In this document: in pieces, positions 9,395 through 46,882 of the stretch
Position numbering within the stretch: position 1 is the first letter of the stretch
Layout: each line of letters starts with the position of its first letter
Sequence record: OZ035751.1
Source of the DNA: Lambdavirus PDP110P1
Direction: 5' to 3' (one strand)
DNA: 48,490 nt
Made by a program: the position numbers and the translations under genes
The notes under the pieces: model-generated
What the model was told of the DNA's origin: nothing
Databases searched by the model: none
The model's input: only the letters and a program-made list of their open reading frames with translations

Positions 9395-10876
9395 ATGGCA
9401 ATTTCGCTATCAAAAATCGCCCAGATGCTTCCCGGCGTACTGAAGGCGACAGGGACAGCTATTGATCTCAATGGCCTGTTCCTGACCGACAGCGCATACG
9501 CGCCGGTTGGTGCAGTACCCTCATTTTCCAGTGCGGATGAGGTAAAGGCGTACTTCGGCAGCGCGTCGATTGAGTACACCGCCGCGGTGCTGTATTTCGC
9601 CGCATTCACCGGTAAAACACAGATGCCTGGCAAGCTGTATTTTAGCCGATTCAATACCGCAGCAGTGGCGGCATTCCTTCGTTCCGGATCGCACGCAGCG
9701 ACCACGCTGGCACAGCTCAAGTTGCTTTCTGGTACGTTGACTCTGACAGTTGACGGCACGGAGGAGACTTCTGCGGCTATCAACCTCAGCGGCGCCACCA
9801 GTTTTGATAATGCGGCAGAGCTGATTGAAACCGGCATTGGCTCCTCGGTTGTAGTGACCTGGGATAGCGTGCTGAAGAAATTCATCATCACCTCTGCCAC
9901 CACGGGCGTGGATAGCACCATTACCTTTGCCGATGAAGGTACGCTTGCTACGGGTCTGAAACTGACCGAAGCGACCGGCGCGGTGATCTCTCAGGGTGCG
10001 GCGCCGGCAGTGGTTGACGATATCTTTACTGCCATTCTGGCCAAAGAGCAGGACTGGGTAACATTCTCCACGACGTTCGCTGTCACCAAAGACCAGGCTA
10101 ATGCGTTTGCGCTCTGGACAAACAGCCAGAACCACCGCTTTGCCTATGTCCCATGGGACGCATCAGGAACGGCAATCGTGGCGGGCAGCTCGAATGCACT
10201 GGTGTACGACATCATCAACACCTACGCCTATAACGACACCTGCCCGGTGTATGGTTACCCGAACCACGCAGCAAACGCGATGGGGTTTGTGGCTGCGCTG
10301 AACTTCACGCAGGCCAATGGTCGCTGTTCGCTGAATGGTCGTCAGGTGTCCGGCCTGCTGCCGATGATCAGTAACGATACTGATTACGAGGCGGCTAAGG
10401 CCAACGGCTATAACTTCTACGGCAACTATGCCTCGAATGCGGTCGAAACCAACCAGTGGGCGCCCGGCTCTATTACCGGTGATTACGCTTGGCTTGACGC
10501 CTGGGCGGGTCAGGTATGGGTAAATGCTCAGCTTCAGGCGGCTCTTGTTGCGCTGTTCCAGCAGGCGAGCAATCTGCCCTTCGCAGCAGCCGGGAAAGCT
10601 CGTATTGAGTCGTGCATGAAGCCGACCATTGAGCAATTCAGGGCGTGGGGTGGCATGACGGCAGGAACCGATCTTGACCAGTCGCAGATCGACCAGATTA
10701 ACGCCATCGCTGGTGTCGATGTTACGGATTCGCTTATGGCTGAAGGTTATTACGTCTACATCGGCCCGTTCACCGCGGCAATGCGCGCCGCGCGTACCAA
10801 GCCAACGGTTTACTTCTGGTACACCGACGGCGGGATCATCCAGGGTATCACCGTTAACAGCACGGAGGTGCAGTAA
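9395..10876 (+). CDS. tail sheath protein (putative)
   Basis: 493 aa followed by a 147-aa tube-like gene, chaperone and tape measure: the gene order of a contractile tail. Confidence 0.5.
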   Translation: MAISLSKIAQMLPGVLKATGTAIDLNGLFLTDSAYAPVGAVPSFSSADEVKAYFGSASIEYTAAVLYFAAFTGKTQMPGKLYFSRFNTAAVAAFLRSGSHAATTLAQLKLLSGTLTLTVDGTEETSAAINLSGATSFDNAAELIETGIGSSVVVTWDSVLKKFIITSATTGVDSTITFADEGTLATGLKLTEATGAVISQGAAPAVVDDIFTAILAKEQDWVTFSTTFAVTKDQANAFALWTNSQNHRFAYVPWDASGTAIVAGSSNALVYDIINTYAYNDTCPVYGYPNHAANAMGFVAALNFTQANGRCSLNGRQVSGLLPMISNDTDYEAAKANGYNFYGNYASNAVETNQWAPGSITGDYAWLDAWAGQVWVNAQLQAALVALFQQASNLPFAAAGKARIESCMKPTIEQFRAWGGMTAGTDLDQSQIDQINAIAGVDVTDSLMAEGYYVYIGPFTAAMRAARTKPTVYFWYTDGGIIQGITVNSTEVQ

Positions 10877-11319
10877 TGGCCGGTCAAAATATTACGTCGG
10901 CAGACGCCATCATTGAGCTGGTCATTGCTGAGCTCTACCCATCCGGGTTTAACCTGGAACAGTTCGAAGCGCAAAACATCTTCGAAATGGGTGATACCGA
11001 TATGGCAGAGTACCAGCGTACTGCTGACGGTAAACTGCTGGGTGGTTTTGTTTATGGTGATCTGCCGTGGACTTTCCATCTGGCGGCATCATCCCCGTCG
11101 ATTAAGTACATCGACAACTGGCAAACCACGCAGATGACCACGCGGTCTGTGCTGCGTGTCAATGGGACTGTGATCCTGCCGTCGCTGGGTAAAAAGTACA
11201 TCATGACTAACGGTATCCTGCAGCGCGCACGCCGCATGCCGTCTGCCGGCCGTGTTCTTCAGCCGGTAACTGGACTCATCCAGTGGGAAACTGTCACCCC
11301 GGCAGACTACTCAGCATAA
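10876..11319 (+). CDS. tail tube protein (putative)
   Basis: 147 aa directly after sheath-like gene. Confidence 0.5.
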   Translation: MAGQNITSADAIIELVIAELYPSGFNLEQFEAQNIFEMGDTDMAEYQRTADGKLLGGFVYGDLPWTFHLAASSPSIKYIDNWQTTQMTTRSVLRVNGTVILPSLGKKYIMTNGILQRARRMPSAGRVLQPVTGLIQWETVTPADYSA

Positions 11320-11353
11320 AAAAAATCAGCCCGGCTAAGTCCGGGCTTTTTTA
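11318..11353 (+). terminator. rho-independent terminator
   Basis: hairpin AGCCCGG-CTAAGT-CCGGGCT followed by TTTTTTAT, directly after the tube gene stop. Confidence 0.7.
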
Positions 11354-11501
11354 TACCCGCAATACCCCGCGCTTCACACGCGCACATCACAACACAGAAC
11401 CTTTCAGGATGACCCTTGAGGATACCGGTTTGGCTATCGGTGCCTTTCTGTGGGCCGGATTCCTGTGTGACAAGGTTCATCACTAAAAGGTAATTACCGA
11501 G

Positions 11502-12257
11502 ATGTCTAATATCATCCCCATGAATTACGATGACCGTTCATTTCCTTTTACTGCTGACTGCTGGTTCAATGCCACGGTTGCCGCAAAGCATCACGGCAAG
11601 CTACCAAAGGACTGGCTAAAGACTGAGGCGACAAAAATTTATATCGCCGAATTGGCTGAGGAGCTTGGAATTGCTGGCTCCGGCGTAAAAGAGGATTTTT
11701 CTCCCCTTTTAGTCAGAGTGGAGAAAGGGCGAAACGGCGGGACCTGGCTTCATCCGGAGTTGGCGGTGGAGTTCGCCCGCTGGTTGTCAGTAAAATTCGC
11801 CCGAGCCTGTGACCGACACATTAAAAATCTGCTACTGAGTAAAAACTTCCAGCTCACTGAAGATCAAATTGTCGGCCTGATGGTCTGTCAGCAACCCACC
11901 TCTTGGGAAAAACGATTTAAAGACCCGTTCTACCAGGCGCTGTCGAAAATGTCCGGCCTTCCTTACTTTGGTCATGTCGGTGGTTGCCCGGCGCTGTTCG
12001 GTCAGATCACCGCTCGATGGGTGTACGGTGTCGCACTTCCCGATTATGTCTATCAGGCAGCAAAACAAGCAGCGGGCGACAGCAGAGAGAAGATTCACCA
12101 GCACCTCAAGCCTGATGCGCTGGATAAGGTCGAGCAGCAATTGATCGCCGTTACCAATATCGCGAATTGCAGCATTGACCAGAAGGACTTCGAGGCCCGT
12201 TGCATGGCCGCGTTTCCCGTTAAGGGTCAGATGAAACTGCTGTATGCGGCGGCGTGA
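11502..12257 (+). CDS. KilA-N domain protein (moron)
   Basis: 251 aa; N-terminal KilA-N-like region (…GTWLHPELAVEFARWL…); sits between two terminators inside the tail module. Confidence 0.6.
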   Translation: MSNIIPMNYDDRSFPFTADCWFNATVAAKHHGKLPKDWLKTEATKIYIAELAEELGIAGSGVKEDFSPLLVRVEKGRNGGTWLHPELAVEFARWLSVKFARACDRHIKNLLLSKNFQLTEDQIVGLMVCQQPTSWEKRFKDPFYQALSKMSGLPYFGHVGGCPALFGQITARWVYGVALPDYVYQAAKQAAGDSREKIHQHLKPDALDKVEQQLIAVTNIANCSIDQKDFEARCMAAFPVKGQMKLLYAAA

Positions 12258-12514
12258 CCATGAATAACCGAATCGTTGAGTGTGCCTCCAGAGCGGGGCG
12301 CGACTTCTCAGAGTTCATGACTGGCGAGAAGAACATGATGGAGGCGCTGCGTTCTGCTGAAGAGTTCACCGAGCAGTTACGCATTCACGGCTGCGTTAAT
12401 CACCATTTCGTCAATTTCATGATGATGAAAGCGATCATGAAGGTATTTGACGACTTGCGCCGAGAGGAGTTGCGGGAAGAACGACGACGCAAACGTGAAG
12501 AGAAGAAGAAATGA
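12254..12514 (+). CDS. hypothetical protein with basic/acidic C-terminal tail
   Basis: 86-aa ORF translationally coupled to the KilA-N gene; C-terminus EELREERRRKREEKKK. Confidence 0.45.
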   Translation: MTMNNRIVECASRAGRDFSEFMTGEKNMMEALRSAEEFTEQLRIHGCVNHHFVNFMMMKAIMKVFDDLRREELREERRRKREEKKK

Positions 12515-12537
12515 GCCCACCACGGTGGGCTTTTATC
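12513..12537 (+). terminator. rho-independent terminator
   Basis: GCCCAC-CACG-GTGGGC followed by TTTTAT. Confidence 0.65.
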
Positions 12538-12589
12538 CTCCCCCGCATCCCTGCTAATCTGTCGAAAACAAACCAACGGGGATAGGGAT

Positions 12590-12970
12590 ATGAAAAAGGT
12601 TCTATTGGTTGCAGCAATAGCGGTTGTACTTGCCGGTTGTGCTTCTGGCGGCAATAAGTCGATTGAGCAAGAAACGCAGATTGGCGTTCAGAGTAAAATA
12701 ATCAAAGGAAAGACGACGAAGCAAGAAGTTAAGGCTGCATATGGAGATCCAGCTGGGGTATCAATCTCCAGTGATGGGAAAGAACAGTGGCACTATGTTT
12801 TCACAAACACACAGATCAGCGGGAAAGCATTTATTCCCATCTATGGACTATTTGATAACGGCGCTACTACCAACATGAAGCAGCTTATAATCGTGTTTAA
12901 GGGCGATATTGTAGATAATTACTTATTTAATAATTCAAATACAGAAGTTAAATCAGGCCTCCTAAACTAA
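12590..12970 (+). CDS. outer-membrane lipoprotein, BamE/SmpA-OmlA-like (moron)
   Basis: signal peptide with lipobox LAG-C; core IKGKTTKQEVKAAYGDPAGVSISSDGKEQWHYVF resembles the BamE/OmlA fold motif; visibly AT-rich; own terminator. Confidence 0.6.
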   Translation: MKKVLLVAAIAVVLAGCASGGNKSIEQETQIGVQSKIIKGKTTKQEVKAAYGDPAGVSISSDGKEQWHYVFTNTQISGKAFIPIYGLFDNGATTNMKQLIIVFKGDIVDNYLFNNSNTEVKSGLLN

Positions 12971-12988
12971 CCAACTTCCATGTTATAG

Positions 12989-13014
12989 ACCTCGCTCCGG
13001 CGGGGTTTTTTATT
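12989..13014 (+). terminator. rho-independent terminator
   Basis: CCTCGC-TCCG-GCGGGG followed by TTTTTTAT. Confidence 0.7.
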
Positions 13015-13041
13015 GCCAGATAACTCATTCAGGAAACAAAA

Positions 13042-13518
13042 ATGGCTCGTAAAAGCATCGTATTCACGGTTGAAGCAGATAACCGTGACAAGGGTAAGCA
13101 GTTCAAAATCACCGAAATGCCGGCGAGAAAGGCCGAAGAGTGGGCGATCCGCCTGGCGTGTGCCGTGATTGGCGCCGGCGTTACCGTTCCCGACAATATG
13201 ATGATGGCCATCGGTGCTGCGGTGGCGCCGGCCCCAGCCGAGGATAACGCAGAAGCTCGCGAGCTGTACGAAAGCGTGATGGCCAGCGGTATGGCCGGAC
13301 TCGCTCAGTGGGGTATCACTTCACTGGCTAAAGTTCCGTTCGCACAGTCAAAGCCTCTGCTTGATGAGTTGCTTGGCTGCGTGAAATTCCTCGGCGGTAA
13401 TGGTATCGAAACAGCGCTTGTTGACGAAGGTCAGATCGAAGAAATCAGCACCTGGTCGCGCCTGAAAATCGAAGCCTTCAAACTCCATATCGCTTTTGTA
13501 GCAGCCACCGCAAGTTAG
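13042..13518 (+). CDS. tail assembly chaperone (putative)
   Basis: 158 aa immediately upstream of tape measure gene; RBS AGGAAA; a -1 frame stays open to the tape measure start. Confidence 0.45.
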   Translation: MARKSIVFTVEADNRDKGKQFKITEMPARKAEEWAIRLACAVIGAGVTVPDNMMMAIGAAVAPAPAEDNAEARELYESVMASGMAGLAQWGITSLAKVPFAQSKPLLDELLGCVKFLGGNGIETALVDEGQIEEISTWSRLKIEAFKLHIAFVAATAS

Positions 13519-13716
13519 AAATTCCCCTATCCGTCCCGGAAGATTCAGATCGCGGCTTCATACAGTATGCGAATGTACCGCGCACCATCGCCGCGGTGAT
13601 CTCCGGGAAAATGGCGACACTCCACGAACTGGACACGGTATACAGCGTTCAGGATATGTGGTGGCTGATAGAAATAATGACCGTGGATAACACCAACAGA
13701 GCCATAGCAGCGGAGA

Positions 13717-15681
13717 GTGATCATGGCAGCAACGGTAATTGACGCCCTCCTGGTTACGCTGGGCCTTGATACTTCTCAGTTCCGCAAAGGCCAGCAGGAA
13801 GTCAGTGATGACCTGAAAAAGCAGCGCGAAGATGCCAAAAATACCGCCAAGGAAATGGCGGAGCAGGGCAAGAAAGCCGCTTCGTTCTTCAGCAGCATAA
13901 AGACGGAATTGCTGGCACTAACTGGTGTTACTGTCACTGCCGGCGGCCTGATAAGCTTTGTGAAAAGCACCACTTCCGGCCTGATGGATTTATCGATCCA
14001 GTCGAAAGTGCTGGGGCTGTCAGCCCGTGAGCTTGATGGTTGGTCGAAGTCAGCAGAGGCAGCAGGGAGTTCAGCTGAGAAGATAAGCGCTTCTCTGCAG
14101 GGGTTTCAGGGCGCTATACAGGGCGCGAGGGTCGGCGATTACAGTAGCTCTATTTTTGGTGGTCTGGCGCAATTAAATGCTCTGACGGGCCAGAATTTTG
14201 ACGTGTGGGGACAGGATGCCAGTTCCCTGGCCAAAACATCCCTTGATGCGCTACGGAAAATCAGCGATCCAAACCTTCGCCGGCAGGTCGGGTTAAGTCT
14301 TGGATTTGATGATGCAACCTTGCAGCGTAATCAGGAAGGGAAATTCCTGCCTGACGTTGATCGCCTGACTAAAAGCTCCGGCATTACAGACGCCTCAACC
14401 AAAGGCGCAAAGGAAGTTACAGCTGCATGGGCGGAGCTGGGACAAAATCTTGACACGGTAAAAAACCAGATTTACGTGGGTTTGATACCAACCATTCGCG
14501 ATCTGAATGATTTCCTCATAGAGTGGTCGTCTGGTAACGCAAAATCCTCTTCATTCTTCAAAGAGCTGAAGCGGGACATTAACGACATTACTGGTATTGA
14601 CCTTGGTAGCTGGACGCTATCAGGCGATCTGCGCAACCTCAAAGATAACTTTTCCATGCTCGGAAAAGTGCTCAATCACCTGGGTAACGCTTTAAACGAG
14701 CTCAATAACGGCAACTTCTCCAAGGCTGCCGATGAGTTTAAAAAGGCGTGGTATGGCACTGAAGACGGAAAGCCTACCGGTAATGATGCGCTGCCCGGAG
14801 TGACCAAGGCAGCCGAGCAGGCGCTGAAGAAAAACGGCGGAACACTGGATTTTAAACCTGATCAGGACTCTGCGTATCTAAGCCCGCAGCAGCAGGCAAC
14901 GCAGAAAATGCTGGATGCAGTTAAGTTTCAGCCGCTTCCTGAACAGCGCAGGCAGCAGCAGGATGAGAGAGACTACTGGGAAAGCACCAAAAATCTCCTT
15001 TCAAAAATCGCTGATGCCCTGATCTCTCCAGCTGGCGCGGCAACAATGCAGCCAGATACCTCGGGATACCAGCCAAACGTCCCGCTTAACGCACAGGCTG
15101 CTCGCCTTGGCGCCAAAGGAAGGGCATTTCTTCAGGCTATGGCTGGCGAATTCGGGGCGCTGGAAGGTAAATATGGACTTCCCGCTGGGCTGCTGTCTTC
15201 GGTGGCTGGTACTGAATCGGGTGGCGACCCGTTCGCAGTATCCCCCAAAGGGGCGAAAGGCCCATTCCAGTTTATGGATGGAACTGCCAGAGACTTGGGT
15301 TTGAAGGGGATGGACGTTTATGACCCCCACAAGTCAGCTGATGCCGCTGCAAGATATTTGCGCTATCTGCTGGATGCTACTGGTGGCGATCTGGAAAAAG
15401 CTCTTGCCTCCTATAACTGGGGGCTCGGAAACGTCCAGAAGAAAGGCATGGACAACCTACCGTCGGAAACTCGCAATTACGTCCCTAAAGTCATGGCCGG
15501 AATGCGCCCCGGCGCCGGGATGGCCGTAGACCGAGCGATGCCCGTGCAGTCCGGTGCGACTTATCAGTTTTATGGCACCAAAATCACCACCCAGGCCCAG
15601 AACGTGGAACAGCTTACCAGCGACATCAAAAAGCACGGCGACAACCGTGTCATGCTTTTGGCTGGCTACTCAGGACAATAA
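13717..15681 (+). CDS. tail tape measure protein with C-terminal lytic transglycosylase (SLT) domain
   Basis: 654 aa; coiled-coil-rich N-terminal part; SLT motif …GTESGGDPFAVSPKGAKGPFQFMDGTARDLG…; ATG at 13723 has the better RBS. Confidence 0.7.
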   Translation: MIMAATVIDALLVTLGLDTSQFRKGQQEVSDDLKKQREDAKNTAKEMAEQGKKAASFFSSIKTELLALTGVTVTAGGLISFVKSTTSGLMDLSIQSKVLGLSARELDGWSKSAEAAGSSAEKISASLQGFQGAIQGARVGDYSSSIFGGLAQLNALTGQNFDVWGQDASSLAKTSLDALRKISDPNLRRQVGLSLGFDDATLQRNQEGKFLPDVDRLTKSSGITDASTKGAKEVTAAWAELGQNLDTVKNQIYVGLIPTIRDLNDFLIEWSSGNAKSSSFFKELKRDINDITGIDLGSWTLSGDLRNLKDNFSMLGKVLNHLGNALNELNNGNFSKAADEFKKAWYGTEDGKPTGNDALPGVTKAAEQALKKNGGTLDFKPDQDSAYLSPQQQATQKMLDAVKFQPLPEQRRQQQDERDYWESTKNLLSKIADALISPAGAATMQPDTSGYQPNVPLNAQAARLGAKGRAFLQAMAGEFGALEGKYGLPAGLLSSVAGTESGGDPFAVSPKGAKGPFQFMDGTARDLGLKGMDVYDPHKSADAAARYLRYLLDATGGDLEKALASYNWGLGNVQKKGMDNLPSETRNYVPKVMAGMRPGAGMAVDRAMPVQSGATYQFYGTKITTQAQNVEQLTSDIKKHGDNRVMLLAGYSGQ

Positions 15682-27159: not shown

Positions 27160-27420
27160 ACCTTGCGCTAATGCTCTGTTACAGGTCACTAATACCATCT
27201 AAGTGGTTGATTCATAGTGACTGGATATGTTGTGTTTTGTAGTATTATGCAGTCTATTATTTAGACTAAATCTTTCATAACATATTGATATTTACAGTGT
27301 TTTCTGTTTATTGTTCAGCTTTTTTATACTAAGTTGGCATTATAAAAAAGCATTGCTTATCAATTTGTTGCAACGAACAGGTCACTATCAGTCAAAATAA
27401 AATCATTATTTGATTTCAAT
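27160..27420. other. attP: attP (lambda-type; core 27318-27332)
   Basis: lambda core GCTTTTTTATACTAA with flanking lambda arm sequence (…ACAGGTCACTA…), adjacent to int. Confidence 0.85.
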
Positions 27421-28476
27421 TTTGTCCCACTCCCTGCCTCTGTCATCACGATACTGTGATGCCATGGTGTCCGACTTATGCCCGAGAAGATGTTGAGCAA
27501 ATTTATCGCTTATCTGCTTCTCATAGAGTCTTGCAGACAAACTGCGCAACTCGTGAAAGGTTGGCGGATCCCCTTCGAAGGAGAGACCTGATGCTTTTCG
27601 TGCGCGCATAAAATACCTTGATACTGTGCCGGATGAAAGCGGTTCACGACGAGTAGATGCAATTATGGTTTCTCCGCCAAGAATCTTTTTGCATTTATCA
27701 AGTGTTTCCTTCATTGATATCCCGAGAGCATCAACATGCAATGTTGTTGGGATAGCAATTTTTACGCCTGTTTTGCTTTGCTCGACATAAAGATATCCAT
27801 CTACGATATCAGACCACTTCATTTCGCATAAATCACCAACTCGCTGCCCGGTAACAACAGCCAGTTCCATTGCAAGTCTAAGCCAACATGGTGATGATTC
27901 TGCTGCTTGATAAATTTTCAGGTATTCGTCAGCCGTAAGTCTTGATCTCCTTACCTCTGATTTTGCAGCGCGAGTGGCTGCGACCGGGTTTGTTGTTATA
28001 TGGCCTTCAGCTATAGCCTCTCGGAATGCATCGCTCAGTGTTGATCTGATTAACTTGGCTGATGCCGCCTTGCCCTCGTCTATGTATCCATTGAGCATTG
28101 CCGCAATTTCTTTTGTGGTGATGTCTTCAAGTGGAGCATCAGGCAGACCCCTCCTTATTGCTTTAATTTTGCTCATGTAATTTATGAGTGTCTTCTGCTT
28201 GATTCCTCTGCTGGCCAGGATTTTTTCGTAGCGATCAAGCCATGAATGTAACGTAACGGAATTATCACTGTTGATTCTCGCTGTCAGAGGCTTGTGTTTG
28301 TGTCCTGAAAATAACTCAATGTTGGCCTGTATAGCTTCAGTGATTGCGATTCGCCTGTCTCGGCCTAATCCAAACTCTTTACCCGTCCTTGGGTCCCTGT
28401 AGCAGTAATATCCATTGTTTCTTATATAAAGGTTAGGTGGTAAATCCCGGCGCTCATGACTTCGCCTTCTTCCCAT
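27406..28476 (-). CDS. int: integrase (lambda Int, tyrosine recombinase)
   Basis: 356-aa protein MGRRRSHERRDLPPNLYIRNNGYYCYRDPRTGKEF…, recognised as lambda Int. Confidence 0.95.
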   Translation of the reverse strand: MGRRRSHERRDLPPNLYIRNNGYYCYRDPRTGKEFGLGRDRRIAITEAIQANIELFSGHKHKPLTARINSDNSVTLHSWLDRYEKILASRGIKQKTLINYMSKIKAIRRGLPDAPLEDITTKEIAAMLNGYIDEGKAASAKLIRSTLSDAFREAIAEGHITTNPVAATRAAKSEVRRSRLTADEYLKIYQAAESSPCWLRLAMELAVVTGQRVGDLCEMKWSDIVDGYLYVEQSKTGVKIAIPTTLHVDALGISMKETLDKCKKILGGETIIASTRREPLSSGTVSRYFMRARKASGLSFEGDPPTFHELRSLSARLYEKQISDKFAQHLLGHKSDTMASQYRDDRGREWDKIEIK

Positions 28477-36751: not shown

Positions 36752-37402
36752 TTATTGCTTAGGAGCTTGTTGTGATGACGATTGGTTAGTTGGAGCGCTC
36801 GTTAATGGTTGCTGTGTCGGTACCTGTATTATAATTGGAGCCGGGCTGGTTACTGATGGTGACTTGTCATTGCCGGAGATAATCCAACTTGAGGCTAACA
36901 TCACGCCAGACAGAATCACAGTAACTAAAGTCAAGCCAACGGCCATCGCCCACTGAGTCGTTGTAAGTCCCGTTTTCAAACCGCCGATTTCACCTTTAAT
37001 TTCAGCAATACCTCTCTCAATAGAAGAAAATTGCTGAGTATAATAGGTTTTAAAGTCAGCTGATTCGCGACGCATTTCCGCAGCAATAGACTCTACCTCT
37101 GATTTGTTTTGTGAAAGCTTTGCGTCAAGTTCTTCTCTGGACATTCCGCTCACGCTTACCTCCAGGGTATCACTCTTCATCGCTACATCTTCCTTACTTG
37201 GGCGCAAACCCGTTTCGTCCATGGCGTATGAAACTCTATTTGATACCTTAGCATCAATACCAATACTTTGGTACTGAGATGGATCCCCATAAGGAGAAAC
37301 GGTTGTCGCTGCTAGGGTTGCACTAACTATAATACTTGGAAGAACTGATGATGTTGTTCCTGAGGTAGGTTGAACTGAAGAAACTGGCTTCAGTCTTTCC
37401 AT
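36752..37402 (-). CDS. coiled-coil, single-pass membrane protein (third gene of cI-distal cassette)
   Basis: 216 aa; Ser/Thr-rich N-terminus, central charged helical region, hydrophobic helix WAMAVGLTLVTVILSGVMLASSWII, Pro/Gln-rich C-terminal tail; start overlaps upstream stop. Confidence 0.5.
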   Translation of the reverse strand: MERLKPVSSVQPTSGTTSSVLPSIIVSATLAATTVSPYGDPSQYQSIGIDAKVSNRVSYAMDETGLRPSKEDVAMKSDTLEVSVSGMSREELDAKLSQNKSEVESIAAEMRRESADFKTYYTQQFSSIERGIAEIKGEIGGLKTGLTTTQWAMAVGLTLVTVILSGVMLASSWIISGNDKSPSVTSPAPIIIQVPTQQPLTSAPTNQSSSQQAPKQ

Positions 37403-37656
37403 AGCCCATTATCCCTGAGAGCTACCTGTAATGATTTTACTAATGCAACAGCTTGATCCGGGCTCATTGAGACTGACATGTTAGGGGTCAACTCAACTTT
37501 TACTTGGAAGCTATTATTTCCTTGCTCATCAGACTGCATGTGATGCTCAAATTCATGGCGGTAAAAAGTAATGATTGTTTCAGCACGATCAGGCGTAATA
37601 AGAACTGATGTGGCGGTCATGTGCTGAGGTATGATTTTAATAGTGTTATCTGACAT
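37390..37656 (-). CDS. small soluble protein (second gene of cI-distal cassette)
   Basis: 88 aa from ATG 37656 with RBS AAGGAAAC; track ORF extends to 37797 without an RBS. Confidence 0.45.
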   Translation of the reverse strand: MSDNTIKIIPQHMTATSVLITPDRAETIITFYRHEFEHHMQSDEQGNNSFQVKVELTPNMSVSMSPDQAVALVKSLQVALRDNGLWKD

Positions 37657-37848
37657 AAGTATCCTTTTTGTTTCCTTAGTATTTTTTTGCATTGACATCA
37701 GAAATAGCGAATCCACAAGAGTATGAGTAAAGCTAATCAGTTTAGTGATACGGTGACTATTAAAGTGGTAAACCACATCAAAGCTCGCAGAGTGCATACC
37801 AGGCTGTCACACATGACAAAGTAACGAGGATGCCTGATCTCATAGCGC

Positions 37849-38081: not shown

Positions 38082-38726
38082 TTAACCAAACGTCTCTTCA
38101 GGCCACTGGCTGGCGATAACTTTCCCCACAACGGAACAACTCTCATTGCATGGGATCATTGGGTACTGTGGGTTTAGTGGTTGTAAAAACACCTGACCGC
38201 TATCCCTGATCAGTTTCTTGAAGGTAAACTCATCACCCCCAAGTCTGGCTATGCAGAAATCACCTGGCTCAACAGCCTGCTCAGGGTCAACCAGAATTAA
38301 CATCCCGTCAGGAAAACTAGGTTTGGATCCTGTTGGCGCGGTCATGGAATTACCTTCAACCTCAAGCCAGAAAGCTTTTTCGCTGGCTTTTGTGGTCGTT
38401 GGGACCCATGCCTTTGCATCGCTGGCTGTGTAGCTTCCCACCTCCGAAAATGGCCCGGCCTGCACTGAAGAAAATAACGGGTATTCATATTGGCGAAATA
38501 CGGCGTCTGAATCCTCGCCAAACATTATTTTTGCCGGAGATACGCCGAGTGCCGCCCCAAGAACCAGCGCGTCATCCGCGCTAACCTTTCTTGTTCCTAA
38601 CTCGTAGTTCCCCAGGCGTGAAGGCGCAGCCCAGCCGCAAAGCTTGGCCAATTGAGCCTGGCTAAGTCCTTTAGCTTCTCTAAGGGACTTGATCCTTTCC
38701 CCGATAATTTCATGCATCGTTTTCAT
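38082..38726 (-). CDS. cI: CI-type repressor (HTH plus LexA-like S24 peptidase domain)
   Basis: 214 aa; N-terminal HTH (…[24 protein letters not shown]…), C-terminal autocleavage domain; divergent from cro across operators. Confidence 0.85.
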
Positions 38727-45634: not shown

Positions 45635-45958
45635 ATGAAGATGCCAGAAAAACATGACCTGTTAGCCGCCATTCTCGCGGCAAAGGAACAAGGCATCGGG
45701 GCAATCCTTGCGTTTGCAATGGCGTACCTTCGCGGCAGATATAATGGCGGTGCGTTTACAAAAACAGTAATCGACGCAACGATGTGCGCCATTATCGCCT
45801 GGTTCATTCGTGACCTTCTCGACTTCGCCGGACTAAGTAGCAATCTCGCTTATATAACGAGCGTGTTCATCGGCTACATCGGTACTGACTCGATTGGTTC
45901 GCTTATCAAACGCTTCGCTGCTAAAAAAGCCGGAATAGAAGATGGTGGAAATCAATAA
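45635..45958 (+). CDS. S: holin S
   Basis: 107 aa [22 protein letters not shown]… with Met1-Lys2-Met3 dual start; recognised as lambda S. Confidence 0.9.
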
Positions 45959-46418
45959 TCAACGTAAGGCGTTCCTCGATATGCTGGCGTGGTCAGAGGG
46001 AACTGATAACGGACGTCAGAAAACCAGAAATCATGGTTATGACGTCATTGTTGGCGGAGAGCTATTCACTGATTACTCCGATCACCCTCGCAAACTTGTC
46101 ACGCTAAACCCCAAACTCAAATCAACAGCCGCCGGACGCTACCAGCTTCTTTCCCGTTGGTGGGATGCATACCGCAAGCAGCTTGGCCTGAAAGACTTCT
46201 CTCCGAAAAGCCAGGACGCAGTGGCACTGCAACAGATTAAAGAGCGTGGCGCTTTACCGATGATTGACCGCGGTGATATTCGTCAGGCAATCGACCGTTG
46301 CAGCAATATCTGGGCTTCACTGCCGGGCGCTGGTTATGGCCAGTTCGAGCATAAGGCTGACAACCTGATTGCAAAATTCAAAGAGGCTGGCGGAACGGTC
46401 AGAGAGATTGAGGTATGA
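45942..46418 (+). CDS. R: endolysin R (lytic transglycosylase)
   Basis: 158 aa [26 protein letters not shown]…; recognised as lambda R. Confidence 0.9.
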
Positions 46419-46882
46419 GCAGAGTAACCGCGATTATCTCAGCTCTGGTTATCTGCATCATCGTTTGCCTGTCATGGGCTGTTAATCATTACCGTGATAA
46501 CGCCATCGCCTACAAAGAGCAGCGCGATAACAAGGCCAGTGAACTGGAGAAGGTGAACGCCACCATTACTGACATGCAGCAGCGCCAGCGTGATGCTGAT
46601 GCACTCGATGCTAAATACACGAAGGAGTTAGCCGATGCAAAAGCTGAAAATGATGCTCTGCAGCGCAAGCTTGATAATGGTGGTCGGGTGCTCGTCAAAG
46701 GCAAGTGTCCAGTGTCAGCCGCAACCCAAACCACCGGCGCCGCCAGCATGGGCGATGATGCCACCGTCGAACTCTCTGCAGTTGCTGGACGAAACGTTCT
46801 TGGTATCCGATCCGGAATCGTCAGCGACCAAACAGCCCTGAGAGCGCTGCAGGAATACATCACCACGCAGTGTTTGAAATAA
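46415..46882 (+). CDS. Rz: spanin inner-membrane subunit Rz
   Basis: 155 aa; N-terminal TM helix then coiled-coil; lambda Rz-like. Confidence 0.85.
46635..46841 (+). CDS. Rz1: spanin outer-membrane lipoprotein Rz1 (embedded in Rz, +1 frame)
   Basis: 68-aa ORF inside Rz; lipobox VVG-C; Pro-rich; RBS GAAGGAG. Confidence 0.7.

What the first reader, a model, noticed from the sequence alone, without database searches (positions are those of the whole stretch)
12590..13014. BamE/OmlA-like outer-membrane lipoprotein moron between tail tube and chaperone
The gene encodes a signal peptide with a lipobox (LAG-C) and a domain whose motif (G-K-T…QV…YG-P…G…W-YVF) matches the BamE/SmpA-OmlA fold. It is visibly AT-rich and has its own terminator. 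Phage-encoded outer-membrane lipoproteins such as Cor, Llp and Bor act in receptor blocking or host fitness, so a BamE-like moron could modulate outer-membrane assembly or exclude superinfecting phages.
Basis: partly seen in the sequence, partly recalled or inferred. Interest (0 to 1): 0.55.

Follow-up and report, generated by a model that had tools for sequence, protein, structure and literature searches.

The report
Mobile phage gene for BamE-like lipoprotein
A small, self-contained extra gene ("moron") in the tail region of a temperate phage encodes a predicted outer-membrane lipoprotein with the fold of the bacterial protein BamE; the gene is real and mobile, it is not a true BamE, and what it does is untested.

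The parts
10876..11319 (+). Tail tube-like gene; left border of the accessory-gene gap
   Evidence: Pfam E217_Gp32 E 1e-15, phrog_1964 E 3.5e-58; it follows the DUF3383 sheath gene 9395-10876
11502..12257 (+). Accessory gene 1 in the gap: KilA-N + P63C protein (antirepressor-like)
   Evidence: Pfam KilA-N E 8e-18, P63C E 2e-11. Present in KP12 and AMR2684; replaced by a Rha-type gene in RCIP0114
12254..12514 (+). Accessory gene 2: 86-aa phrog_875 protein, function unknown
   Evidence: phrog_875 E 7.7e-51
12514..12535 (+). Hairpin (12514-12531) plus TTTT of the phrog_875 gene's terminator; left junction of the cassette
   Evidence: Inverted repeat AGCCCACCACGGTGGGCT. In the empty sites (AMR2684, KP12) this hairpin is followed directly by TTTTTTATTGCCAGAT
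12532..13005 (+). The 474-bp moron cassette (junctions ambiguous by up to 4 nt because TTTT follows both hairpins)
   Evidence: Alignment of filled and empty sites; GC 0.429
12552..12560 (+). Extended -10-like promoter element TGCTAATCT (candidate, not proven)
   Evidence: TAnnnT at this register in 100 of 108 unique leaders, and with the TG extension in 84 of 108. The standard -35/-10 scan found nothing
12578..12592 (+). Conserved ribosome-binding leader GGGGATAGGGAT plus ATG
   Evidence: Unique in the window; the same 15-mer precedes 36 cargo families elsewhere
12590..12970 (+). Lipoprotein gene, 126 aa (stop codon included)
   Evidence: phrog_3135 E 3e-28; dN/dS 0.05-0.10
12590..12640 (+). 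Signal peptide (residues 1-16) and lipid-attachment Cys17 (12638-12640), lipobox LAG|C, +2 Ala
   Evidence: Read from the sequence; Pfam LPAM_1 19.7 bits vs cut-off 20; Cys17 invariant in 92 of 92 relatives
12692..12925 (+). BamE/BLIP-type domain (residues ~35-112): two helices, then a beta-sheet
12824..12856 (+). Family-specific 11-residue insertion K79-D89 (KAFIPIYGLFD) in a beta-hairpin loop; absent from BamE
   Evidence: Gap in hhalign; P83 conserved in >=90% of 92 relatives; modelled with lower confidence
12987..13011 (+). Intrinsic terminator: the hairpin belongs to the cassette, the T-run to the recipient phage
   Evidence: junction alignment
13042..13518 (+). Tail assembly chaperone; right border of the gap
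   Evidence: phrog_1932 E 3.8e-48
13717..15681 (+). Tape measure protein with a C-terminal SLT lytic transglycosylase domain (context)
   Evidence: phrog_2013 E 1e-218, Pfam SLT E 1e-21

Best explanation
SHOWN. A 474-bp horizontally mobile moron cassette (12532-13005) is inserted between the hairpin and the T-run of the preceding gene's terminator, in the tail tube-to-chaperone gap of a temperate myovirus. The cassette carries a promoter-like TGnTAnnnT element, a standard ribosome-binding leader, one ORF and its own terminator hairpin. The ORF encodes a protein with a typical lipoprotein signal peptide. Its mature part is a divergent BamE/BLIP-type domain with a family-specific conserved loop (FIPxYGLF) and a C-terminal extension. 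It is not an orthologue of the BAM subunit BamE. INFERRED. (1) The protein is lipidated at Cys17 and sorted by Lol to the inner leaflet of the outer membrane, because +2 is Ala. (2) It is made in the lysogen. The basis is the cassette's own promoter-like element between two terminators, plus relatives that sit as the last gene behind cI-like and Arc/Mnt-like repressor genes with no terminator in between. (3) It works as a periplasmic binding module that protects the lysogen at the envelope. The most likely form is superinfection exclusion, by blocking an outer-membrane or periplasmic step of adsorption or DNA delivery of incoming phages. Step 3 rests only on fold type and gene position. I put it at roughly 0.35 on its own.
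For: Cassette and mobility. E. coli AMR2684 and Klebsiella phage KP12 carry the same tail module without the gene. The empty site reads hairpin|TTTTTTATTGCC and the filled site reads hairpin-TTTT...cassette...hairpin|TTTTTTATTGCC. The same gene at 98% protein and ~99% coding-DNA identity lies directly upstream of the tape measure gene in unrelated siphovirus prophages (RAH1, E. coli 53). GC stays at 0.38-0.41 in every host phage, against 0.54 for the flanking genes.
Lysogenic expression (context). Among 81 related loci, 43 lie in the siphovirus slot between major tail/DUF6246 and tape measure, 2 match the window, and 20 lie immediately downstream of an HTH+S24 cI-like repressor. In PhiR26_1 the order is cro<-|cI->lipoprotein->terminator, with no terminator between cI and the gene. 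In a Serratia prophage the order is Arc-like RHH->lipoprotein->terminator, divergent from an antirepressor operon.
Promoter-like leader. TAnnnT occurs at a fixed register in 100 of 108 unique leaders, and with the TG extension in 84 of 108.
Precedent. The HK97 gp15 moron, between chaperone and tape measure, is a superinfection exclusion protein (PMC3594210; locus checked). T4 Imm and HK97 gp15 are reported or proposed to target the tape measure protein (bioRxiv 10.64898/2026.03.06.709160).
Against: There are no expression, localisation or phenotype data, and I found no paper on this family. The window's own promoter element is weak: -10 TAATCT is 3 of 6, the -35 is degraded at the junction, and the standard scan found none. 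There is no PADLOC match. The family is not phage-specific. Moraxella carries a member inside the atp operon, and Neisseria perflava has a stand-alone chromosomal copy. That fits a general envelope function at least as well as phage exclusion. The gene is not next to a receptor-binding protein gene, unlike cor and llp (that adjacency is from my own knowledge of those systems). Position in a moron hot-spot may reflect tolerance for insertions rather than function.
Confidence: 0.5

Rival explanations
1. BamE mimic. The lipoprotein docks on the host BAM complex in place of, or beside, BamE. That would change outer-membrane protein assembly, for example lowering the display of porin or TonB-dependent phage receptors, or altering RcsF signalling.
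Against: The NCBIfam BamE equivalog scores 16.4 bits against a cut-off of 93. hhalign places a 6-residue gap opposite BamE's N-terminal extension (R29-Q34), a region reported to contact the BamA barrel and tune BamA-BamD (bioRxiv 10.1101/2024.10.31.621230). BamE positions M64, D66, F68, F74 and R78, all mutation-sensitive, are G, S, D, H and T here. The best-conserved feature outside the shared BamE-type core is an inserted loop that BamE lacks. Other BamE-fold proteins such as OsmE, BLIP and BtiO are not known as BAM subunits (my own knowledge).
Confidence: 0.12
2. Periplasmic inhibitor or immunity protein. Like BLIP or the T6SS immunity protein BtiO, the domain binds and neutralises an incoming periplasm-acting enzyme. 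Candidates are a T6SS or bacteriocin effector, or the muralytic domain at a superinfecting phage's tail tip. The last case would be a special form of exclusion.
Against: No toxin or effector gene is adjacent in any of the contexts surveyed. The similarities are at fold level only. The NCBIfam hit is not significant.
Confidence: 0.15
3. Host-fitness (lysogenic conversion) lipoprotein, similar in spirit to OsmE or lambda Bor. It would improve envelope robustness, stress tolerance or serum resistance of the lysogen and have no role against phages.
Against: The function of OsmE itself is unknown, so the analogy predicts little. Sitting behind prophage repressor genes and in the HK97 gp15 slot fits exclusion and fitness genes equally (lambda rexAB versus bor/lom).
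Confidence: 0.2
4. Late lytic-cycle function. The gene is read mainly with the tail operon. It would act at lysis or afterwards, for example masking receptors on debris so that progeny are not wasted (as T5 Llp does), or acting as a spanin-like lysis factor.
For: It lies on the same strand inside the late tail operon. The window's own promoter element is weak.
Against: A terminator hairpin with TTTT sits immediately upstream (12514-12535). The phage has its own holin, endolysin and Rz spanin cassette at 45635-46882. At 126 aa with a folded domain it is unlike o-spanins. Relatives sit behind repressor genes.
Confidence: 0.08

Closest known systems
E. coli BamE (SmpA/OmlA; BAM complex subunit; PDB 8adg_E, 5d0q_E)
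   Different: It fails the BamE equivalog model. The N-terminal extension is shorter and unrelated. There is an 11-residue conserved insertion (KAFIPIYGLFD) and a C-terminal extension. Several mutation-sensitive surface positions are replaced. It is encoded on a mobile phage cassette and is additional to the host's own bamE.
OsmE and other BamE-domain / BLIP-like proteins (BLIP, BLP, Bacteroides BtiO, DUF4309 YjgB)
   Different: No significant sequence match for the window protein itself. The partners and roles of those proteins (beta-lactamase, T6SS effector) have no counterpart in the gene's neighbourhood.
HK97 gp15 moron (superinfection exclusion; PMC3594210)
   Same: Same architecture: an AT-rich single gene with its own terminator. 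The genomic slot is the same for the siphovirus copies of this cassette (between tail chaperone and tape measure) and analogous in the window.
   Different: gp15 is a 62-aa inner-membrane protein, not a lipoprotein. There is no sequence or fold similarity, and the leader differs.
Phage outer-membrane lipoproteins Cor (phi80/N15/T1), Llp (T5), Bor (lambda)
   Same: All are small phage-encoded lipoproteins made for the benefit of the phage or lysogen. Cor and Llp block the receptor FhuA, and Bor gives serum resistance (my own knowledge; the Bor reference is listed in PMC3594210).
lambda rexAB / P22 sieA-immI: accessory genes placed behind or beside prophage repressor genes
   Same: 20 of 81 related loci place a family member directly downstream of cI, in lambda's rex position. 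Serratia and Tatumella prophages place it beside an Arc/antirepressor (immI-like) set.
   Different: No homology. In the window itself the gene is in the tail module, not behind the repressor gene (38082-38726).

Membership tests
BamE-type domain (Pfam PF04355, BLIP-like fold) | Single sequence scores above Pfam's gathering threshold | tested here: not met
   21.3 bits, E 2.3e-4, against a cut-off of 23.2
BamE-type domain (Pfam PF04355, BLIP-like fold) | Family-level homology (relatives and profile-profile comparison) | tested here: met
   75 of 92 relatives hit PF04355 at E<=0.01, best 1.8e-9. hhalign of the family against E. coli BamE: 89.9%, E 1.7e-6, 92 columns. The top 10, and 17 of the 19 PDB sequence hits, are BamE, though each at E ~0.1
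BamE-type domain (Pfam PF04355, BLIP-like fold) | Two helices packed on a three-stranded antiparallel sheet, superposable on solved BamE | tested here: met
BamE orthologue (subunit of the BAM complex) | Passes the curated equivalog model for BamE | tested here: not met
   NCBIfam NF008585 16.4 bits against a cut-off of 93. None of the 92 relatives reached it at E<=1e-3 among the listed families
BamE orthologue (subunit of the BAM complex) | N-terminal extension between the lipid Cys and the folded domain (E. coli residues ~21-38, ...RPDINQGNYL...) | tested here: not met
   hhalign places a 6-residue gap opposite R29-Q34 of BamE. The linker here is C17-ASGGNKSIEQETQIGVQ. The role of this region is described in bioRxiv 10.1101/2024.10.31.621230
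BamE orthologue (subunit of the BAM complex) | Conservation of positions whose substitution gives vancomycin sensitivity (Knowles 2011 list as tabulated in PMC10135246) | tested here: inconclusive
   Core positions are kept (I46, V55, W73, Y75, V76, L91, L93, F95). M64, D66, F68, F74, R78 and Q88 are replaced. Which of these contact BamD or BamA was not checked here
BamE orthologue (subunit of the BAM complex) | Physical association with BamA/BamD | not testable with these tools
Bacterial lipoprotein (Lgt/LspA/Lnt pathway) | Signal peptide ending in a lipobox [LVI][ASTVI][GAS]C | tested here: met
   MKK-VLLVAAIAVV-LAG-C17. Pfam LPAM_1 19.7 bits against cut-off 20. Cys invariant in 92 of 92 relatives
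Bacterial lipoprotein (Lgt/LspA/Lnt pathway) | No Asp at +2, so Lol-dependent transfer to the outer membrane (E. coli rule) | tested here: met
   +2 is Ala18. The sorting rule itself is established knowledge, not tested here
Bacterial lipoprotein (Lgt/LspA/Lnt pathway) | Actual lipidation and cleavage | not testable with these tools
   Needs globomycin sensitivity or palmitate labelling
Moron (definition as given in PMC3594210, its ref. 14) | Extra DNA absent from otherwise collinear relatives | tested here: met
   Empty site in the AMR2684 prophage and in KP12; filled site in the window
Moron (definition as given in PMC3594210, its ref. 14) | Base composition differs from the surrounding genes | tested here: met
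   GC 0.404 against 0.536+-0.030, z -4.4
Moron (definition as given in PMC3594210, its ref. 14) | Own terminator | tested here: met
   Hairpin 12987-13008 overlapping a T-run 13006-13011. The same hairpin travels with the gene in other phages
Moron (definition as given in PMC3594210, its ref. 14) | Own promoter | tested here: inconclusive
   No match in the standard -35/-10 scan. A TGnTAnnnT element at a fixed register is conserved in 84 of 108 unique leaders. The window copy TGCTAATCT is a weak version
Moron (definition as given in PMC3594210, its ref. 14) | Expression from the repressed prophage | not testable with these tools
   Only contextual support: relatives lie behind cI-like and Arc-like repressor genes without an intervening terminator
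Cor / Llp receptor-blocking lipoproteins | Homology of the mature protein | tested here: not met
Cor / Llp receptor-blocking lipoproteins | Blocks adsorption to a defined outer-membrane receptor | not testable with these tools
   Needs adsorption and plating assays

The most novel reading that the evidence does not exclude
The lipoprotein is a phage-made BamE look-alike that docks on the host BAM machine, using its conserved FIPxYGLF loop as a new contact. It would re-tune outer-membrane protein assembly in the lysogen, changing which receptors are displayed and so excluding many phages, colicins or contact-dependent toxins at once. That would be the first viral factor known to target BAM from the periplasmic side.
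Probability: 0.1. Interest if true: 0.8.

Novelty: new member of a known kind. Interest (0 to 1): 0.4.

Why it matters
Temperate phages of Klebsiella, E. coli and their relatives shape how clinical strains respond to other phages, including therapeutic ones. This cassette and close variants occur on hundreds of enterobacterial contigs and move between phages with different tail types. If it blocks superinfection or alters the outer membrane, it is a common and so far untested source of phage resistance or envelope change. It is also a clean test case: natural phage pairs with and without the 474-bp cassette already exist. [quoted passage not shown] That name overstates what is known and could mislead counts of BAM genes.

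Tried and rejected
1. RNA switch in the leader. An upstream C-rich stretch can pair with the GGGAT ribosome-binding site. Single-sequence folds are no better than shuffles (z -0.9 to +1.4), and the alignment shows 4 pairs with no compensatory change. Rejected.

2. Rfam scan of 12200-13200: nothing near any gathering score.

3. PADLOC defence models: no hit for the lipoprotein.

4. o-spanin: rejected. The phage has holin, endolysin and an Rz-like spanin at 45635-46882, and this protein is a folded 110-residue domain.

5. Cor homology: signal peptide only.

6. PDB sequence search with the shallow 10-sequence profile found no BamE at all. The deeper 92-sequence profile ranked BamE first, but only at E ~0.08. 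Sequence alone is therefore borderline, and the case rests on hhalign plus fold.

7. Standard sigma-70 scan: no promoter in 10800-13800.

8. Literature: searches for BamE with prophage, moron, phage or superinfection exclusion gave only incidental mentions. A search for the paper behind phage PhiR26_1 found unrelated Pseudomonas work.

9. Tools that failed. The search for related loci with the 92-sequence alignment found no conserved stretch, so I used the 10-sequence alignment instead. The afdb50 fold library was not available.

10. The genome-contig scan gave only 3 loci, too few to measure the chromosomal versus prophage share of the family.

Full report
**What the window is.** The 48.5-kb window reads as a complete temperate myovirus genome.
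- Terminase at 517-2193.
- DUF3383 sheath at 9395-10876, tube-like gene at 10876-11319, tail chaperone at 13042-13518.
- Tape measure protein with an SLT domain at 13717-15681.
- Tail fibres, then an integrase at 27406-28476 (-).
- cI-like repressor at 38082-38726 (-), and an O-like replication gene.
- Holin, endolysin and Rz at 45635-46882.

The region around the finding is 100% identical to a prophage of E. coli 20KM2222. It is about 95% identical, in parts, to Klebsiella phages KP12 and RCIP0114.

**Check of the observation.**
- ORF 12590-12970 (+) gives a 126-aa protein starting MKKVLLVAAIAVVLAG|C17ASGG.
- Gene GC is 0.404 and GC3 0.394, against 0.536+-0.030 and 0.613+-0.064 for the other 28 structural-arm genes.
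- It is the only stretch with GC <=0.42 (381-bp windows) in the first ~24.7 kb.
- A 9-pair hairpin at 12987-13008 runs into a T-run at 13006-13011.
- The gene is under purifying selection: dN/dS is 0.046 against a Serratia prophage copy and 0.10 against copies at 91% identity.

**Is it BamE-like?**
- Sequence alone is borderline. PF04355 gives E 2.3e-4 at 21.3 bits, under the 23.2-bit cut-off. A shallow profile found no BamE in the PDB.
- An exhaustive profile search found a large family of lipoproteins, mostly 125-135 aa: 1,893 representative clusters at E<=1e-3 and 510 at E<=1e-10.
- Of 92 aligned members, 75 hit PF04355, best E 1.8e-9.
- The family profile aligns to E. coli BamE at 89.9% probability, E 1.7e-6, 92 columns, 24% identity.
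- An AlphaFold2 model built on the 92-sequence alignment has mean pLDDT 85.4, with two helices followed by a sheet.
- The earlier 10-sequence model gave BamE chains as the seven best Foldseek hits.

The fold assignment is therefore supported.

**Is it a BamE?** No.
- The curated BamE equivalog model gives 16.4 bits against a cut-off of 93.
- hhalign leaves a 6-residue gap opposite R29-Q34 of BamE. That is part of the N-terminal extension reported to contact the BamA barrel and tune BamA-BamD.
- The alignment also shows 11 inserted residues, K79-D89 (KAFIPIYGLFD), that BamE lacks.
- That loop holds P83, the only residue conserved in >=90% of the family that lies in a segment with no BamE counterpart.
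- A review tabulates BamE substitutions that cause vancomycin sensitivity (PMC10135246). The buried positions are kept here. M64, D66, F68, F74, R78 and Q88 are G, S, D, H, T and M.
[quoted passage not shown] That is a domain-level label.

**The cassette.**
- An E. coli prophage (AMR2684) and phage KP12 have the same tail module with the KilA-N and phrog_875 genes but no lipoprotein gene.
- Aligning filled and empty sites shows the insertion point exactly. In the empty site the phrog_875 terminator hairpin (GCCCGCCACGGTGGGC in AMR2684) is followed by TTTTTTATTGCCAGAT.
- In the window the hairpin (12514-12531) is followed by TTTT, then the cassette, then the cassette's own hairpin, and then the original TTTTTTATTGCCAGAT.
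- The cassette is 474 bp (12532-13005), with up to 4 nt of junction ambiguity.
- The same gene at 98% protein and ~99% coding-DNA identity sits immediately upstream of the tape measure gene in unrelated siphovirus prophages (RAH1; E. coli 53). There the shared sequence ends at the same TTTTTTATTGCC.
- The gene keeps GC 0.38-0.41 in every phage examined.

**Where relatives sit.** I surveyed 81 related loci from viral contigs, annotated phages and genomes.

| Context | Loci |
|---|---|
| Siphovirus tail module, between major tail/DUF6246 and the tape measure gene | 43 |
| Same arrangement as the window | 2 |
| Immediately downstream of an HTH+S24 cI-like repressor | 20 |
| Unresolved | 16 |

- In phage PhiR26_1 the order is cro<-|cI->lipoprotein->terminator, with no terminator between cI and the gene. 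Salmonella phage S107 is similar.
- In Serratia and Tatumella prophages the pre-tape-measure slot holds a P22 immI-like set. An Arc-like RHH gene is followed after 63 bp by the lipoprotein gene and then a terminator. This unit is divergent from a small gene plus a P22_AR_N antirepressor.
- The siphovirus slot is the one occupied by the founding moron, HK97 gene 15, a superinfection exclusion gene (PMC3594210; locus checked).
- These positions are where prophages keep genes expressed in the lysogen. That is the basis, and the only basis, for inferring lysogenic expression and an exclusion-type role.

**The leader.**
- The 15 nt around the start codon, GGGGATAGGGAT(A/G)TG, are unique in the window. 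They recur in front of other genes.
- In the loci fetched by homology, plus 120 stretches fetched by this motif alone, the motif precedes 156 complete ORFs falling into 36 unrelated families. Of these families, 27 begin with a signal peptide or lipobox.
- Across 108 distinct leaders, a TAnnnT hexamer starts 23-26 nt upstream of the GGGG in 100. With a TG two bases before it (TGnTAnnnT, the extended -10 form) it occurs in 84. The sequence on either side varies.
- The window copy is TGCTAATCT (12552-12560). It is a weak version, and the -35-like TTGTCG seen in sister leaders is lost at the left junction.
- In the motif-only set, 84 of 89 resolvable occurrences lie within 4 kb upstream of a >=600-aa ORF on the same strand, at a median of 50 nt. 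A hairpin plus T-run follows 73 of 120.
- The same lipoprotein (98% identical) is found behind two different leader variants, so leader and cargo recombine at the ribosome-binding site.
- I read this as a standard expression leader for interchangeable, mostly envelope-targeted, accessory genes. It supports calling the cassette an autonomous unit, but no transcript has been shown.
- An RNA structure in the leader is not supported.

**Not only in phages.** Moraxella species carry a 130-aa member (37-38% identical) inside the ATP synthase operon, between atpG and atpD. Neisseria perflava has a stand-alone chromosomal copy. This weakens any purely phage-directed reading and keeps a general envelope role in play.

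**Most likely mechanism.**
- Shown: a mobile promoter-like/RBS/ORF/terminator cassette encoding a protein with a lipoprotein signal peptide and a divergent BamE-type domain.
- Inferred: lipidation and Lol sorting to the outer membrane (+2 Ala); synthesis in the lysogen; action as a periplasmic binding module that protects the lysogen, most probably by excluding superinfecting phages.
- I rate the descriptive part as near certain and the exclusion mechanism at about one in three.
- Rivals: a fitness factor of the OsmE/Bor type (0.2), an inhibitor or immunity protein of the BLIP/BtiO type (0.15), a BAM-binding BamE mimic (0.12) and a late lytic function (0.08).

**Novelty.** Phage morons encoding outer-membrane lipoproteins are a known kind (Bor, Cor, Llp). 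The fold is known, and databases already label the gene. I found no functional study of this family. I class it as a new member of a known kind, of moderate interest. Natural plus/minus phage pairs make it readily testable.

Noticed in passing
window 12552-12592; also L034-L056 near 6474 and 6867, and L104-L223: A conserved leader (TGnTAnnnT, about 25 nt of variable sequence, then GGGGATAGGGAT-ATG) precedes 36 unrelated cargo ORF families in enterobacterial prophage contigs. 27 of them begin with a signal peptide or lipobox. The leader lies nearly always just upstream of the tape measure gene and sometimes occurs in tandem. It looks like a standard expression leader for swappable envelope-targeted morons.
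   Followed up: partly
L097 7001-7393, L098, L099, L102, L103 (Moraxella spp.): A 130-aa member of the same lipoprotein family is inserted inside the F1Fo ATP synthase operon, between atpG (gamma) and atpD (beta), in several Moraxella genomes and metagenome contigs.
   Followed up: no
window 11502-12514: The tube-to-chaperone gap is a variable accessory slot. The window has KilA-N/P63C + phrog_875 + lipoprotein. KP12 and AMR2684 have the first two only. RCIP0114 has a single 185-aa gene; the sister phage ST899-OXA48phi17.1 is annotated with a Rha family regulator at that position. A siphovirus (L083) has KilA-N + phrog_875 followed by a 47%-identical lipoprotein.
   Followed up: partly
L094 6370-8420; L093 8430-10230: Serratia and Tatumella siphovirus prophages carry a P22 immI-like set (Arc-like RHH, small divergent gene, P22_AR_N or Bro-N antirepressor) between the DUF6246 gene and the tape measure gene. 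The lipoprotein gene lies directly behind the RHH gene in Serratia.
   Followed up: partly
window 36752-37797 (-): Two low-GC genes (135 aa and 216 aa; the latter is phrog_5820, unknown function) lie directly downstream of the cI-like repressor gene (38082-38726) on the same strand. That is the 'rex' position, so they are candidate lysogen-expressed accessory or defence genes. No significant Pfam or PADLOC match.
   Followed up: partly
NZ_CP141750.1 (47,948 bp) and NZ_CP141749.1, E. coli 2023CK-01482: The same assembly holds this phage region both in the chromosome and as a separate 47.9-kb record at 99.8% identity. This suggests an excised circular copy, or a phage that persists extrachromosomally.
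   Followed up: no
window 13717-15681: The tape measure protein is short (654 aa) and ends in an SLT lytic transglycosylase domain at residues 482-579. In KP12 the equivalent gene is annotated in two pieces.
   Followed up: no
L050 6420-6815 and relatives (cluster c13): In many siphovirus loci a 131-137-aa protein with a signal peptide directly follows the lipoprotein gene. It has the same leader and no Pfam match, so it is another uncharacterised envelope moron.
   Followed up: no
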